Below are positions 37,082-44,060 of a stretch of DNA of 64,000 bases, piece after piece. Within the stretch, counting starts at the first letter, position 1. Each line of letters begins with the position of its first letter. Under the pieces are notes generated by a model. That model did not search any database. It saw only the letters and a list, made by a program, of their open reading frames with translations, and had not been told where the DNA came from. This DNA comes from Thermomicrobiales bacterium (GTDB lineage: Bacteria; Chloroflexota; Chloroflexia; Thermomicrobiales; UBA6265), in the NCBI GenBank assembly GCA_041390745.1, contig JAWKPJ010000001.1, positions 355,322 through 419,321 of the forward strand. Reading direction: 5' to 3'. The position numbers and the translations under genes were made by a program.

Positions 37082-37426
37082 ATGCAGAATCGACTGCTCC
37101 TGGCCGGGCTCGGCATTCTGTTGATTCTGGCGGCTGCCCTCGTCTTCGCGCTGGCGCGCATCGACCCGCCCTTGCCCAATGCGACCGCCCAGGTCGATGA
37201 CCACGATCACGACCTTGAACTGCCGCCTGAACCCGTTGGCCGTACCCTGTTCGGCGGCAACAGCGGCGAACTCCGGGTCTCCCCGGCCGTGCCGGCCGGG
37301 GCCACGCCAGGACCGAGGTTCGGCGCCACACCGGTCGCCATGCCCTCGTTCGACGTTTTCGCTCCGGCCCGCTTCCAGGTGACACCGGCCGCTGCGCCAT
37401 CCGCAACGGCCGGTACGCCCCCCTAG
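37082..37426 (+). CDS. Hypothetical membrane-anchored protein with Asp/His-rich motif
   Basis: N-terminal TM (LLLAGLGILLILAAALVFALA), VDDHDHDLE motif, Pro/Ala-rich tail. Confidence 0.3.
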   Translation: MQNRLLLAGLGILLILAAALVFALARIDPPLPNATAQVDDHDHDLELPPEPVGRTLFGGNSGELRVSPAVPAGATPGPRFGATPVAMPSFDVFAPARFQVTPAAAPSATAGTPP

Positions 37427-38052
37427 CCTTCGACGGTCACCACCACAGTTTCCAGCGGATCGACGGTGCAGACGACCGGATAGCGCCCCGGCTCCGGAAA
37501 GCGCTGGACAAACGTCTGCCTGGCTCCCACCAGAAAGGGTCCGGCGCGATGCTCGACGTCATCCAGATTCTGGATGGTGATCACCGCTTCAGCGGGCGAA
37601 GCAAAGCGAATGTCGGTGGGTATGGCGATCGCCGAATCAAAGCCGGGCCGCGCGATGGTGTTGCTTGCTCCGGCCGGAATCGTGAAGTGCAGGCCCGGCG
37701 CGGGCGCAAGCCCGGTCCGCCCGGTAATTGCCCCGGTGGCCAGGAGCAGGCCCACCAGCGCAACAACGCAGAGCCCGGCAATCAGCGCAATGTTCCCGGC
37801 TCCGGGCCCCGGCGCACGTTCCGCAGCGGCGTTGGCGGCGCCGGCCCCAGCCCCTGGAACCCGCTCACAGGAATGTCGTTCGTCTCCACTGGTCTTTCCA
37901 TCACGAGATCGACAGACTGGCTGCCCACCCAGGCGAGCAGCCAGCCATTCGTTGACCAGATCAGGAATGCGGCGTGGCCGCTGGCGTCCCCATGTCGCCC
38001 ATGCCCGTCGCCGGAGCAGGTCGTGACCAGGGATCGCTGATGGTGAGGTCAC
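37423..38052 (-). CDS. Membrane-anchored protein with cupredoxin-like C-terminal domain (copper ligands not conserved)
   Basis: TM helix NIALIAGLCVVALVGLLLATGAI, then about 95 aa with a cupredoxin-like pattern (ITIQNLDDVEHRAG...PEPGRYPVVCTVDP). The Arg-rich N-terminal 45 aa overlaps the PCuAC 3' end and may be a start-site artefact. Confidence 0.4.
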   Translation of the reverse strand: MTSPSAIPGHDLLRRRAWATWGRQRPRRIPDLVNEWLAARLGGQPVCRSRDGKTSGDERHSCERVPGAGAGAANAAAERAPGPGAGNIALIAGLCVVALVGLLLATGAITGRTGLAPAPGLHFTIPAGASNTIARPGFDSAIAIPTDIRFASPAEAVITIQNLDDVEHRAGPFLVGARQTFVQRFPEPGRYPVVCTVDPLETVVVTVEG

Positions 38053-38547
38053 CCACCGTGATCGGCGCAGCCGGGGCAGCGCCCGCCGCCAGTTCGGCGC
38101 GCGGCCGTACCGTCACGGAGACAGTTACGTCGCCGGCCTTCTCAAAATGCAGAGTCAGGTCATACGTCTTGCCGTTGGTCAGGTCCTCCCGGAGCCCGAA
38201 CATCATGATGTGGTACCCGCCCGGCTCCAGAGCTTCTTCGCCGCCTGCGGGGATGACGAGTCCATCGCTCAGGGGCCGCATTTCCATGACCCTGTCTACC
38301 TCCGCCATCTCATGGACCTCCACGGCGTCGGCGACCTCCGTCTCCCCACCCAGGAGCACGTCATCTTCGGCGCCGCCATTCTGGATGAGCATGAAGGCGG
38401 CGGCGGAGCCAGTGAGGCGCCGCTCTTCGTGGCCGGCCCCGGCGGAGGGGTGGCGGCGCCATGGTCATACGCCTGCGTGAGGGGGCTGCCAAACAGGCCA
38501 CTACCTACTGCCACGAACGCGACTGCCAGAGCAACATTGCGAAACAT
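37961..38547 (-). CDS. Copper chaperone PCu(A)C (DUF461), interrupted by one frameshift between signal peptide and core
   Basis: Signal peptide MFRNVALAVAFVAVGSGLFGSPLTQA in one frame (from 38547). The PCuAC core continues in another frame (…HEERRLTGSAAAFMLIQNGGAEDDVLLGG...VEVHEM...IPAGG...GGYHIMMFGL...LTLHFEKAG). The C-terminus carries a second DLTISDPWSRPAP motif. Confidence 0.6.
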
Positions 38548-38595
38548 GGTCCTGATTCCTTTCTGAGAGTCACCCGGCGCGCGCCGGATGCATCG

Positions 38596-39276
38596 TCATG
38601 AGTTGAGCAAATGACGGATGTCCTGCGCCATCAGCGCCGGGTCCATGCCGTAGGGAAACGTGAGGGCCAGCCGGCCCTGTGGATCGATCACGTACGTCTG
38701 TGTGGAGTGATCGAGGAGGTACTTTGTCGCGGAATCGGGGTACTCGACGCGATGCACGAGAACTCCGTAGTCCCGCTCCACCTGCTCCGTTTGCGCCGCG
38801 TCGCCGCGCAGACCGATGAACTCTGGATCGAAAAACGCCAGGTACTCTTTCAGCTTCTCCTGGGTATCGCGTTCCGGATCAATGGTCACCAGCACGAACT
38901 TCACCCGGTCAGCGTCGGCGCCAAGCTCCTCCTTGACCACCTGGTAATCGATCAACGTGGTCGGGCAGATATCCGGGCAGGTGGTGTATCCGAAGTAGAC
39001 CACCACCGCGTTGCCCTTGAGCTGATCGAGCGAGAATGGCTTGCCATTCGTGTCGGTCAGGTTGAGCGGCTTCGCGGCTTCTGGCTGCGCGTAGAAGCCA
39101 CCGTTATAGGTGTACGGCGCCTCCTGGCTGCGAAACACCAGAAACACCACCGCCGCCACTGCGGCGATCGCCAGGACTACGCCGCCAATCAGCGCACCCG
39201 TACCGGATGACCGCCGCCCTGCCGCCGGGACGCGGTCAGGCGCGTCAGCGGGTCCAGGCTCTGTTTGCGTACTCAT
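38596..39276 (-). CDS. SCO1/SenC family copper chaperone (cytochrome oxidase assembly)
   Basis: GGAGGA RBS then ATG (MSTQTEP). TM anchor, thioredoxin-fold with CPDICP (CxxxC) and a conserved His (...HSTQTYVIDPQGRL). Confidence 0.9.
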   Translation of the reverse strand: MSTQTEPGPADAPDRVPAAGRRSSGTGALIGGVVLAIAAVAAVVFLVFRSQEAPYTYNGGFYAQPEAAKPLNLTDTNGKPFSLDQLKGNAVVVYFGYTTCPDICPTTLIDYQVVKEELGADADRVKFVLVTIDPERDTQEKLKEYLAFFDPEFIGLRGDAAQTEQVERDYGVLVHRVEYPDSATKYLLDHSTQTYVIDPQGRLALTFPYGMDPALMAQDIRHLLNS

Positions 39277-39301
39277 ATGTTCCTCCTGTTCTGTTGCATG
39301 C

Positions 39302-40576
39302 TCACCCCTCAAACCACGCAGCCAGTTCAGCCAGCCGGGTCATCGAGTCGGTGAGCAGCAAGGCCGCCACAATCAGCACCAGCACGCCACTGGCCTGCTG
39401 CAGGCGTGGCAACCAGCGCCGGAAGCGCCCGGAACTGGCCATGAAACGATCGAGCGCAATGGTTGCGCCGAGGAAGGGAATGGCGAGACCCAGGGAGTAG
39501 ACCGCCAGCAGCGTCACGCCCTCGCGAACCGACGCCGTGGCCGCGGCGATGGTCAGGATCCCCGCCAGCGCCGGGCCGATGCAGGGTGTCCAGCCGGCGC
39601 CGAACGCGACCCCGATCAGGAAGGCTCCGGCTCCACCCGTCCGCTGGCTTGTCACCTCCGCCCGCAGCGTGCGATCCAGCCAGGGAATGCGCAGCAGGCC
39701 CAGCAGATGCAGGCCAAGCACGAGCAGGATTACGCCGCCAATGCGGGCGATCCAGGCGCGGTACTCAATCAGCCACCCACCCAGCAGCGTGGCCGACGCC
39801 CCCAGCGCGATGAACACCGCGCTAAATCCGGCCACGAACAGCAGGCCGTTCGTGAAAGTGGCCTGACGGATGCGTTGCCGGGCCTCCGGCGCGGAGGAAC
39901 TCAACTCCTTGATCGAGAGGCCAGTAATCACCCCGGCGTAGGTCGGAATGAGCGGCAGCACGCAGGGTGAGAGAAAGCTGAGCAGCCCCGCCACAAACGC
40001 GACGGGGATCGCAATCTGCGCCACCGGAGCCGCGATTTCAGAGGTGGTGTCGTCAAGCGCCGCCTGGAGAATCTCGCGGTCCGCAGGGCTGTCCTGCAGC
40101 GGCCCCTTCCAACGATACAACTCCTCGCCATTCCGTCCAATCAGCACCGTCTCCGGCACACCGGTCGTGCGAAAGGCCCGCGCGAACGTGTTTTTTGGGT
40201 CGTGCAGCAACGTGAAGGTCACGCCGGTATCGGCCGCAAACTGCTCGATCTTGCCCGCCGCCTCGCCACGGTCGATGCTGACGCCCACCACGCGCAGCCC
40301 CTGATCGCCGTACTCCTCCTGGAGGTGCTGCAACAGCGGCATCTCCTCGCGGCAGGGTTGGCACCAGGTTGCCCAGCCATTCAGCAGGACGACCTCACCG
40401 CGCAGATCGGCCAGAGAAAGTTCGCCGGAACCATCGAGCCTGGCCGCCGCGTAGGCGGGCGCCTGGTCCGCGAGGACGCTCCCGGACCCTGCTGCGCCGA
40501 GCAAACCTGTCACGATGATTGTCAGGGCTACGACCAGCGCCCGCAGGGGCCGGCGAGCCATGTTGTGCCTGCGCAT
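39302..40576 (-). CDS. Thiol:disulfide oxidoreductase fusion: TlpA/ResA-like thioredoxin domain + CcdA/DsbD transmembrane electron-transfer domain
   Basis: N-terminal signal/TM then WATWCQPC thioredoxin motif. C-terminal CcdA-like TM core with the two conserved Cys (…FLSPCVLPLIP… and …GWTPCIGPAL…). Confidence 0.85.
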   Translation of the reverse strand: MRRHNMARRPLRALVVALTIIVTGLLGAAGSGSVLADQAPAYAAARLDGSGELSLADLRGEVVLLNGWATWCQPCREEMPLLQHLQEEYGDQGLRVVGVSIDRGEAAGKIEQFAADTGVTFTLLHDPKNTFARAFRTTGVPETVLIGRNGEELYRWKGPLQDSPADREILQAALDDTTSEIAAPVAQIAIPVAFVAGLLSFLSPCVLPLIPTYAGVITGLSIKELSSSAPEARQRIRQATFTNGLLFVAGFSAVFIALGASATLLGGWLIEYRAWIARIGGVILLVLGLHLLGLLRIPWLDRTLRAEVTSQRTGGAGAFLIGVAFGAGWTPCIGPALAGILTIAAATASVREGVTLLAVYSLGLAIPFLGATIALDRFMASSGRFRRWLPRLQQASGVLVLIVAALLLTDSMTRLAELAAWFEG

Positions 40577-40578
40577 GG

Positions 40579-41919
40579 TTACGCCCCTGACGCGTCGCCC
40601 GCGAGGGAGATCGTAGCGACCTGCACGTCATGGTCACCGATATAGCCAAGAGCCAGGGCGTCGTCAGCAACGGCCAGGGTGGGGTAGACCCCGCTCAGGC
40701 CTTCCGGGCCCACGGGCGTCACGGCGCCGCCCGGTGCGATCCTGTTCAGAACGATACGCGGCGCATCCTCTCTCGCATCGGTGAAGGCAACGTAGGCGTT
40801 GCCCTGGTCATCCACAGCCAGTCGGACAGGCGTGACTGGCGCCCATTCTGCCTCAAGGAGCGCAACAGGTTCGGAAAACGCCTCGCCTGCGGCCTCGGCG
40901 ACGGCGTAGTACACGCCATTGCGGCCCTCGGCCCCGGTGAACCAGGCGACGTGCAGCCGCCCGGCGCTGTCGATGGCCAGGCCTGGGCCACTGTGCGGGC
41001 ACTGCGGCATGTGCCACCCATCCCGGTGGACCAGTTCTGCCGACGACCACGTTTCGCCGCGGTCGTCGGACCAGGCCACCACGGGGTCCCTTACGGGGTC
41101 GGAACCATCTGCCTGGTTCCACTGGTCGCGCCAGGCAAGGTACACACGGCCATCGGAGCCAAACTGCAGCCTGGGCGCGCAACAGGGGCAGGCCGGCTTG
41201 CTTACCTCCACCGTCGGCGCGAAGCTGCGCGCGCCGTCATCTGACCATGTCACGCGCAGGCTGGAGGTGGAATAGTCGTCCACAAGGCCGTTGAAGATGT
41301 CGCGGAAGTCGAGCCAGGCCACAAAGACCCGGCCATCCGGGCCAACCGCCAGGTCATGGTAGCCACCCGAGTTTGTAATCCCCTCATCGTGAGGGATTTC
41401 AATGGGCGCGTCGAAGCTGCGCCCATCGTCCGACCGCGCAATCATCACGATCTCGCGCCCGTACTTGCTCACGTCACTGGGCGGAGCGCTCAAGTAGGCA
41501 ACGTACACCGCACCGTCTGGGCCAAACCCACTCACCGGGGCCGTGGAACCAGACGCGGCGTAGCCGTCCTCACCGCTGACCAGCACCGGCTCTTCGAAGG
41601 AGTTTCCACCGTCGGTCGAGCGAGCCAGGAAGACCCGGTTGATCGCCGGGGAATCACTTGCGTGACCGCCAGCCATTGGTGTCGCATCCCCGTGTCCGGC
41701 GTGGTCAACCGCCTGCTCGGGAGCAACCCAGGTCAGGTACACATTCCCGTCGTAGGGATTAACCGCGAGCCACGGGTCCGTGCGTGCGGAACCGGCCGCC
41801 GCTCCGTGCTCGGCCAGCACGCGCACCGAGCCAACGAGCGCAAGGGCTCCGGCGGCCGCCAGCCCGCCCAGCATCTGGCGACGGGTAATCAGCGACTGCG
41901 TCGCGACTGAAAGCATCAT
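40579..41919 (-). CDS. Tat-secreted BNR (Asp-box) repeat protein, sialidase/Ycf48-like beta-propeller
   Basis: Twin-arginine signal TRRQMLGGLAAAGALAL. Repeated Asp-boxes STDGGNSF, SDDGRSF, SDDGARSF, SDDRGETW. Unusual CPCC and CPHSGPG motifs. GGAG RBS before ATGATG at 41919. Confidence 0.75.
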   Translation of the reverse strand: MMLSVATQSLITRRQMLGGLAAAGALALVGSVRVLAEHGAAAGSARTDPWLAVNPYDGNVYLTWVAPEQAVDHAGHGDATPMAGGHASDSPAINRVFLARSTDGGNSFEEPVLVSGEDGYAASGSTAPVSGFGPDGAVYVAYLSAPPSDVSKYGREIVMIARSDDGRSFDAPIEIPHDEGITNSGGYHDLAVGPDGRVFVAWLDFRDIFNGLVDDYSTSSLRVTWSDDGARSFAPTVEVSKPACPCCAPRLQFGSDGRVYLAWRDQWNQADGSDPVRDPVVAWSDDRGETWSSAELVHRDGWHMPQCPHSGPGLAIDSAGRLHVAWFTGAEGRNGVYYAVAEAAGEAFSEPVALLEAEWAPVTPVRLAVDDQGNAYVAFTDAREDAPRIVLNRIAPGGAVTPVGPEGLSGVYPTLAVADDALALGYIGDHDVQVATISLAGDASGA

Positions 41920-42031
41920 GACAAATCTCCATCCACGGCGCATGCCAACGATTTCGGCGCATGCGCGGAGGGGCACTGTCCACTCGGGTGCAATGCCAGT
42001 GTTCAGTTTGAGAGTGGCGTGGAGCAGTCGA

Positions 42032-42529
42032 TTACGGGGGTGGCGGCTCCGGCGCGGGCAGGAGGTGATTGACCGGCTGTGCCGTGGGGAGCGGCAACGG
42101 CGCGGGCACGCCCCCGGCAATGCCCACCGGGGCTGTGAAAAGCGCCACGGCAATCAGGGCCTCTGTCATTGCGCCAGCAGTCGTTGGCACAGTGGCGCGC
42201 GCCCCGGCTGAGGCGCCTTGCCGTGTGTCCGGCGCTGATGGGGCTGAGGCGTCCGCAGCCGATTCCATCTCCAAAGCGTCCGAGGCGGATGACCGCTCTG
42301 TGTGCACGTGGGCCGCAGGTCCCGCCTGAATCCCCACCTCCGTGGCGGATGCACGCAACGCAGCCACGGCCTCGGCACTCACAAAAACCGAGTGCGGGCC
42401 GTACACAGCCCCGCATTCAACGGGAACGGCGCCCAGCCCCAGCAGCACCAGCAGGGCTGCCAGGCGAACAATGACTCGCAGGTTGTCGCGCACGACACCG
42501 AACATGAGCGCACCCGCCACCCAAGGCAT
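42032..42529 (-). CDS. Hypothetical membrane protein with Pro-rich C-terminus
   Basis: From the internal Met (MPWVAGALMFGVV…LAALLVLLGLGAV) it has two predicted TM helices and a PAPEPPPP tail. The upstream Arg-rich extension was discarded. Confidence 0.3.
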   Translation of the reverse strand: MPWVAGALMFGVVRDNLRVIVRLAALLVLLGLGAVPVECGAVYGPHSVFVSAEAVAALRASATEVGIQAGPAAHVHTERSSASDALEMESAADASAPSAPDTRQGASAGARATVPTTAGAMTEALIAVALFTAPVGIAGGVPAPLPLPTAQPVNHLLPAPEPPPP

Positions 42530-42642: not shown

Positions 42643-43650
42643 ATGCACTCACTGGAGGGACGGCGCGTGCAAGCGCACATTCACGTCGTGGTGGCTGGCG
42701 GCGACGCGGCGAGCCTGGCCGGAGCGGTCGCGCTGGCACGCTGCGGGCGCAGCGTACTGGTCATCGACGCCGGAACGCCGCGCAAAGCCCTGGCCAGCGG
42801 CATCCACAACTTCCTGACGCGCGAATGCACGCCGCTGGCGGACCTGTATGCGCTGGGCCAGGCCGAGATCCTGGAGTACGCCGGCGGGGTGATCCCCGGA
42901 CTCGTCGCAGGGTTGCGCCGGGACGAAGCAAGCGAGGGCGTTGAGGTCTCTCTGGCCGATGGACGCGCGGTGTGGGTGCGCCGTCTGCTCGTTGCCACTG
43001 GCGCCGCCGACCTCCTGCCGGTTAGCCCTGGCCTCGCCGAGCGCCGGGGCCACGACGTGTGGCATTGCCCCTTCTGCCACGGCTGGGAAGCGCGGGATGG
43101 CGCCCTTGGCGCCCCTGGCTTCGGACCCGTGGCGATGCACGCCACCCGCTCTGGCGGAAAATCAGCCCGGACGTGCCCTACTCCTGCACACCGCGCCTGC
43201 GCTGACGCCGGAGCAGGCCCAACCGCTTGCGGCGTCGGGCGTGCCCGCTGTGGAGGGCGAGGTCGCAGAACTGGTCATCGCGAATGGTCGCGTGTCCGGC
43301 CTCTGCCTGCGCACCGTTGAGATCACCTCGCGCGAGATCGTTGTGGCTGCGCCGGTCGTCCAGGCGCACGCCAATCTCCTCCGTGTTTTCGTGTTGGAGG
43401 CCGAGCCACTGGAAGCAGGCGGCCAGGTCATCGCCTCGCGGGGGCGTCTGTCCCAGCCGGCCGCACTGGCATCCCCGGCGTCTGGGTGGCGGGCGACGTG
43501 GCGGACCCCATGGGCCAGGTTATCGCTGCTGCTGTCGATGGCATGCGCGCCGGCGCTGCGATCAACCTCGACCTGATGGTCGAGGACACCGCTGCCGCCG
43601 TGGCCGTCTGTCAGGCTGCCTCAGCCCTGACGACCGAGCAGGCCGGGTGA
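42643..43650 (+). pseudogene. Thioredoxin-reductase-like FAD/NAD(P) pyridine nucleotide-disulfide oxidoreductase with two frameshifts
   Basis: Frame 1: HVVVAGGDAASLAGAVALARCGRSVLVIDAG...HCPFCHGWE. Frame 2: ...LLLHTAPALTPEQAQPLAASGVPAVEGEVAELV.... Back to frame 1: IPGVWVAGDVADPMGQVIAAAVDGMRAGAAIN...*. The shifts fall near the ggaaaatc run (about 43150) and the cgggggcg run (about 43445). Confidence 0.6.
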
Positions 43651-44060
43651 CAAGGTGAACGGCGTTCCGGCGAACTGCCGCACGCCAGCGCCGAGGTCCG
43701 CCAGCGTGATGCTGGCGAGGCGCCGATCCAGCCCACGGTTTGCCTCGGCCACCGCGTCATCAAGTGCGCCGTGCACCACCCGTTGCACGAGACAGCCATC
43801 AGGCTCGTCCGCCTTCCCGGCTGCGACATCCATCACGGGTTCGTTCAGCGCGCGCTGGACCTGCTCCAACGCAATTTCGGCAGGAGGGACGCGCCAGTTG
43901 CCCCCCACGCCTCATGCGGGAGGCCACAATACCTGCCTCGCGCAGCCCGGCAAGCGTCTGCCGCACCACGACAGGGTGTGCGCCGGAACACTCCGCTATC
44001 GCCCTGGAGGTCATGGTCGCCCCCCGCGCTGCGCCAGGTGGCGCAGCGCGGGGGCGCAAA
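43621..44060 (-). pseudogene. Rrf2 (IscR/NsrR-like) family transcriptional regulator, frameshifted
   Basis: Segments in three frames: ...LCAPALRHLAQRGGRP (Rrf2 N-terminal helix); MTSRAIAECSGAHPVVVRQTLAGLREAGIVASRMRRGG (wHTH recognition region); ...ARPPAEIALEQVQRALNEPVMDVA...ITLADL (C-terminal). Shifts are at C5/G6 homopolymers. Overlaps the 3' end of 42643-43650 (convergent). Confidence 0.5.

What the first reader, a model, noticed from the sequence alone, without database searches (positions are those of the whole stretch)
37082..42529. Copper/cytochrome-oxidase biogenesis cluster containing a Tat-secreted BNR beta-propeller with CPCC/CPHSGPG motifs and a ligand-less cupredoxin-like protein
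Contiguous minus-strand genes: cupredoxin-like membrane protein; PCuAC (frameshifted, with a duplicated DLTISDPWSRPAP motif at its C-terminus suggesting a tandem or remnant second PCuAC domain, part of which continues in a third frame: ...AAFLIWSTNG...); SCO1 (CPDICP); TlpA-CcdA fusion; a 446-aa Tat-exported BNR/Asp-box protein. SCO, PCuAC and TlpA are the textbook CuA-site assembly trio. The BNR propeller in the same operon, with cysteine clusters (KPACPCCAPR, PQCPHSGPG), is not a standard member and could be a periplasmic copper-handling or assembly scaffold. The TlpA-CcdA fusion would deliver reductant across the membrane within a single polypeptide.
Basis: partly seen in the sequence, partly recalled or inferred. 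Interest (0 to 1): 0.55.

Follow-up and report, generated by a model that had tools for sequence, protein, structure and literature searches.

The report
Cysteine-rich propeller paired with thiol reductase
A copper-chaperone operon in a Thermomicrobiales genome contains an uncharacterised exported seven-bladed propeller with four conserved cysteines, and across bacteria and ammonia-oxidising archaea this protein is nearly always encoded beside a TlpA-type thiol reductase and/or a TonB-dependent outer-membrane importer, which suggests an undescribed copper-acquisition component.

Summary
The gene cluster is real. On the minus strand lie a small His/Met-rich membrane ORF, a 446-aa twin-arginine propeller, a TlpA::CcdA fusion, SCO1, PCuAC and a membrane-anchored cupredoxin-fold protein. 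The order is syntenic in four other Thermomicrobiales contigs.

Two details of the observation fail. The DLTISDPWSRPAP motif occurs once, not twice. It is conserved at the C-terminus of intact orthologs and corresponds to the strand that is N-terminal in canonical PCuAC, so it looks like a circular permutation. The 'third-frame' peptide is not a PCuAC remnant.

The window carries about five frameshifts relative to orthologs: PCuAC, probably the cupredoxin-like gene, a TrxR-like gene (two) and Rrf2. They may be assembly errors.

The propeller's conserved partners are not Sco/PCuAC (1 of 80 genome loci). They are a TlpA-like thioredoxin immediately downstream (about half of loci, including archaea) and a TonB-dependent receptor upstream (about half). 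Other copper genes recur nearby: CopCD, MbnP/MbnH and cupredoxins.

Best reading: a thiol-dependent extracytoplasmic copper-handling protein kept reduced by TlpA. The copper role is inferred, not shown.

The parts
42032..42505 (-). Small ORF (about 157 aa): N-terminal TM segment, VPVECAAVYGPHS motif, acidic/His-containing linker, C-terminal LPAPEPPPP. First gene of the conserved Thermomicrobiales block.
   Evidence: tblastn of L086/L087/L081 orthologs gives 45-63% identity. It lies upstream of the propeller in L001, L002, L003, L081, L086 and L087. No Pfam or NCBIfam hit. No significant profile match to the Cys/His-rich ORF found upstream of the receptors in other phyla.
40579..41919 (-). 446-aa exported Asp-box propeller with twin-arginine leader (TRRQML), C244-P-C246-C247 and C307-P-H309 motifs.
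39302..40576 (-). TlpA-like thioredoxin (WATWCQPC) fused to a CcdA/DsbD-type membrane thiol-electron transporter. Starts 3 nt after the propeller stop codon.
   Evidence: Pfam AhpC-TSA 82 bits, Redoxin 75.7, DsbD_TM 70.8. NCBIfam best hits are TlpA and ResA, below equivalog cut-offs. Junction sequence. The same fusion follows the propeller in L002, L003, L006, L017, L018, L023, L032, L041, L045-L062 (archaeal loci) and L075.
38596..39276 (-). SCO1/SenC copper chaperone (CPDICP, DHS). Likely start is ATG 39276; the maximal ORF begins at TTG 39312.
   Evidence: PF02630, 144 bits. The L086 ortholog aligns to 39276-38599 at 81% identity.
37961..38547 (-). PCuAC copper chaperone. Signal peptide (38547 to about 38460) and body (about 38464-37961) are in different frames. 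Body carries H-x10-M-x22-H-x-M and a C-terminal DLTISDPWSRPAP strand plus a Met/His tail.
   Evidence: PF04314, 99.5 bits on HMM positions 21-109. Intact orthologs of 195 aa (L086) and in-frame (L087). Moving the C-terminal strand to the N-terminus gives a full 1-109 HMM match, 115.2 versus 108.1 bits. PDB PCuAC alignment.
37423..37901 (-). Single-pass membrane protein with a C-terminal cupredoxin-fold domain. The conserved part is 37423-37803. The probable start, ATG 37901, is in another frame.
   Evidence: 88 homologs; every hit that carries a taxon name is from Thermomicrobiales MAGs (most carry no source name), and none has a Pfam domain. Invariant C112, N79, D81, R86, Q96, R101. AF2 pLDDT 92.2. 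All 50 top Foldseek PDB hits are cupredoxins, E 3e-4 to 2e-2, TM 0.30-0.43. N-terminal frame issue.
37082..37426 (+). Conserved 114-aa ORF on the opposite strand (TM segment, DDHDHD). Function unknown; may or may not belong to the system.
   Evidence: 71% identical ORFs at the same place in L086 and L087, called as genes there.
42643..43590 (+). Divergently transcribed thioredoxin-reductase-like flavoprotein (Pyr_redox_2; HCPFCHGWE). Broken into three frame pieces in the window.
   Evidence: The L086 329-aa ortholog aligns in frames +1, +2, +1. Synteny in L001, L003, L081, L086 and L087.
43627..44017 (-). Rrf2-family regulator, syntenic with the cluster. Split over two frames in the window.
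   Evidence: The L086 Rrf2 (156 aa) aligns as residues 24-70 in frame -1 and 59-155 in frame -2. Pfam Rrf2 in orthologs.

Best explanation
The operon encodes an extracytoplasmic copper supply line built around a conserved two-part module.

Part 1 is an exported seven-bladed Asp-box propeller. Its four conserved cysteines are C-x-C-C at the start of one inner strand and C-P-H at the start of the next blade's inner strand. Together with conserved His/Asp residues, they would form a thiolate-rich metal site at the mouth of the propeller.

Part 2 is a dedicated TlpA-type thioredoxin that keeps those cysteines reduced outside the cell. In this organism the thioredoxin is fused to CcdA, which carries reducing equivalents across the membrane from cytoplasmic thioredoxin. 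A TrxR-like flavoprotein is encoded divergently next door.

The propeller would capture copper, possibly after or during reduction to Cu(I). It would pass the copper to PCuAC and Sco1, encoded directly downstream, for insertion into cuproenzymes.

In bacteria with an outer membrane, the same propeller(+TlpA) pair follows a TonB-dependent receptor, so it would act as the periplasmic acceptor of the imported copper species.

SHOWN: gene content and order; conservation of the cysteines; conservation of the TlpA and receptor adjacency; the seven-bladed fold of the model; recurrent copper genes nearby.

INFERRED: that the cysteines bind metal; that the metal is copper; that TlpA reduces the propeller; the direction of transfer to PCuAC/Sco1.
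For: - Tight operon: the propeller stop and the TlpA::CcdA start are 3 nt apart. The order is the same in four other Thermomicrobiales contigs.
- Cys motifs: CxCC in 96% of 227 full-length members, and CxCC plus CP[HDE] in 85%. C307/P308 are invariant in 111 sequences, and the Cys is kept in the ammonia-oxidising archaea examined.
- TlpA-like gene (always WATWCxPC) lies immediately downstream on the same strand in 35 of 76 loci by the automated count. L004 and L011 were missed through overlapping ORF calls, giving 37 of 76. The loci span Chloroflexota, Actinomycetota, Alpha- and Gammaproteobacteria, Gemmatimonadota and Nitrososphaeria.
- A TonB-dependent receptor lies immediately upstream in 35 of 66 loci. 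Either partner is present in at least 55 of 62 loci with both flanks. L012 has the full set: small Cys/His ORF, receptor, propeller, TlpA, CcdA.
- Copper genes next to the module in separate lineages: Sco1+PCuAC (this lineage); MbnP (TIGR04052, 294 bits) plus MbnH (TIGR04039, 406 bits) directly upstream in L085; a CopC-CopD fusion divergent from the operon in L036, L039, L053 and L061, and downstream in L031; Copper-bind and Cupredoxin_1 neighbours.
- Precedents in the literature (PMC7558416): periplasmic CopG binds a tetranuclear Cu cluster through a CxCC motif, and TlpA reduces the copper-binding cysteines of ScoI and CoxB before metallation.
- The family occurs in copper-demanding groups: ammonia-oxidising archaea, methanotroph relatives, Nitrococcus.
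Against: - No metal-binding data exist, and I could not read coordinates of the model, so proximity of the four cysteines is argued from strand topology only.
- Sco/PCuAC co-location is confined to one order.
- About half of the loci have no adjacent TlpA. Many have only the receptor, whose closest solved relatives are YncD and PqqU, not the copper receptors OprC or CrtA.
- Copper-related neighbours are a minority, roughly 10 of 80 loci, and several of these loci are related to each other.
- The twin-arginine leader is not a family trait. Most members have Sec or lipoprotein signals, so cofactor loading in the cytoplasm is not general.
- Four cysteines could equally form a Zn site or disulfides.
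- PCuAC and the cupredoxin-like gene are frameshifted in this window, so the local pathway may not be intact.
Confidence: 0.45

Rival explanations
1. The propeller is a thiol-dependent extracytoplasmic protein serviced by TlpA, but its ligand is another thiophilic metal or metalloid (Zn, Fe, Co, Hg, As, Se) or a metal chelate. It is not specifically copper. The copper chaperones in this operon are a lineage-specific neighbour.
For: The propeller-TlpA and receptor-propeller adjacency say nothing about which metal is involved. The receptor resembles generic siderophore, B12 and PQQ receptors. HmuY and a second receptor lie upstream in L083. FeoB lies downstream in two loci. Most loci have no copper gene nearby.
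Against: The recurring metal-specific neighbours found in the census are mostly copper ones: Sco1, PCuAC, MbnP/MbnH, CopCD and cupredoxins. CxCC is a documented Cu-cluster motif. The family is prominent in archaea that lack c-type cytochromes and rely on copper proteins (established knowledge, not tested here).
Confidence: 0.2
2. The cysteines are structural (disulfides or a structural Zn site). The propeller is a binding protein or enzyme for a non-metal substrate brought in by the TonB-dependent receptor, for example a glycan, as the 'sialidase family' label implies. TlpA acts only as a folding or isomerisation helper.
For: There is weak Pfam BNR_2 similarity, and sialidases are the top Foldseek hits. 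Receptor-linked periplasmic enzymes are common in Bacteroidota and Gemmatimonadota.
Against: - BNR_2 scores below its gathering cut-off.
- There is no FRIP motif in the sequence.
- No SusD or carbohydrate genes recur nearby.
- WCxPC TlpA/ResA-type thioredoxins are reductants, not oxidants (established knowledge).
- The pair also occurs without any receptor in monoderms and archaea.
Confidence: 0.15
3. The window simply holds the textbook CuA-assembly set (TlpA, Sco1, PCuAC), and the propeller is an unrelated passenger gene.
For: TlpA, Sco and PCuAC are known to work together on CoxB (PMC7558416).
Against: Across 80 species-level loci the propeller keeps TlpA, while Sco1/PCuAC are absent from 79. 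The propeller stop and the TlpA::CcdA start are 3 nt apart. No CuA or subunit-I signature is present anywhere in the 64-kb window.
Confidence: 0.05

Closest known systems
TlpA - ScoI - PcuC (PCuAC) CuA-assembly pathway of Bradyrhizobium / Thermus
   Same: Sco1 (CxxxC + His), PCuAC (H-x10-M-x22-H-x-M with a Met/His tail) and a TlpA-type WCxPC thioredoxin are all present in one operon. TlpA's known job is to reduce copper-binding cysteines before metallation.
   Different: - TlpA is fused to CcdA.
- An extra Cys-rich propeller precedes it and is the gene that TlpA actually travels with in other phyla.
- PCuAC has its first strand moved to the C-terminus.
- No oxidase genes were found in the window.
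CopG (DUF411) periplasmic copper protein
   Same: It is a secreted protein with a conserved CxCC motif, which in CopG bridges a tetranuclear copper cluster and is proposed to interconvert or transfer Cu (PMC7558416).
   Different: CopG has a small thioredoxin-like fold and uses two nearby Met. Here the motif sits on a predicted 400-residue seven-bladed propeller, with a fourth conserved Cys about 60 residues downstream. There is no sequence or fold relationship.
CrtA-type TonB-dependent copper import operons (cruR/DUF2946 - crtA - PepSY_TM; sometimes with PCuAC/ScoI)
   Same: In relatives from Gemmatimonadota, Longimicrobiia, Rhodothermales and Gammaproteobacteria the layout is a small Cys/His-rich upstream ORF, a TonB-dependent receptor, then a periplasmic or redox partner. 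CrtA operons are likewise linked to respiratory oxidases and occasionally to PCuAC/ScoI (PMC12914433).
   Different: - The receptor is not CrtA-like; its nearest solved relatives are YncD and PqqU.
- The downstream partner is the propeller (+TlpA), not a PepSY_TM protein.
- The upstream ORF gives only a faint full-length DUF2946 match (E 0.21).
- The window itself has no receptor.
DsbD / ScsB / DipZ family (membrane thiol-electron transporter fused to a thioredoxin-like domain)
   Same: A single polypeptide combines a CcdA/DsbD-type transmembrane core, with its two conserved Cys, and an extracytoplasmic thioredoxin-fold domain.
   Different: The domain order is N-terminal TlpA then CcdA. There is no DsbD alpha domain. 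The fusion is dedicated by gene order to one client family.
GH33 sialidases / BNR_2 (the label public annotation gives this family)
   Same: Both have Asp-box (S-x-D-x-G-x-x-W/F) repeats on a beta-propeller. The profile of the family matches short Asp-box stretches of sialidases.
   Different: - The Pfam score is below the gathering cut-off.
- There is no FRIP motif.
- The conserved residues are Cys/His/Asp at blade entrances rather than the Arg triad and Tyr/Glu.

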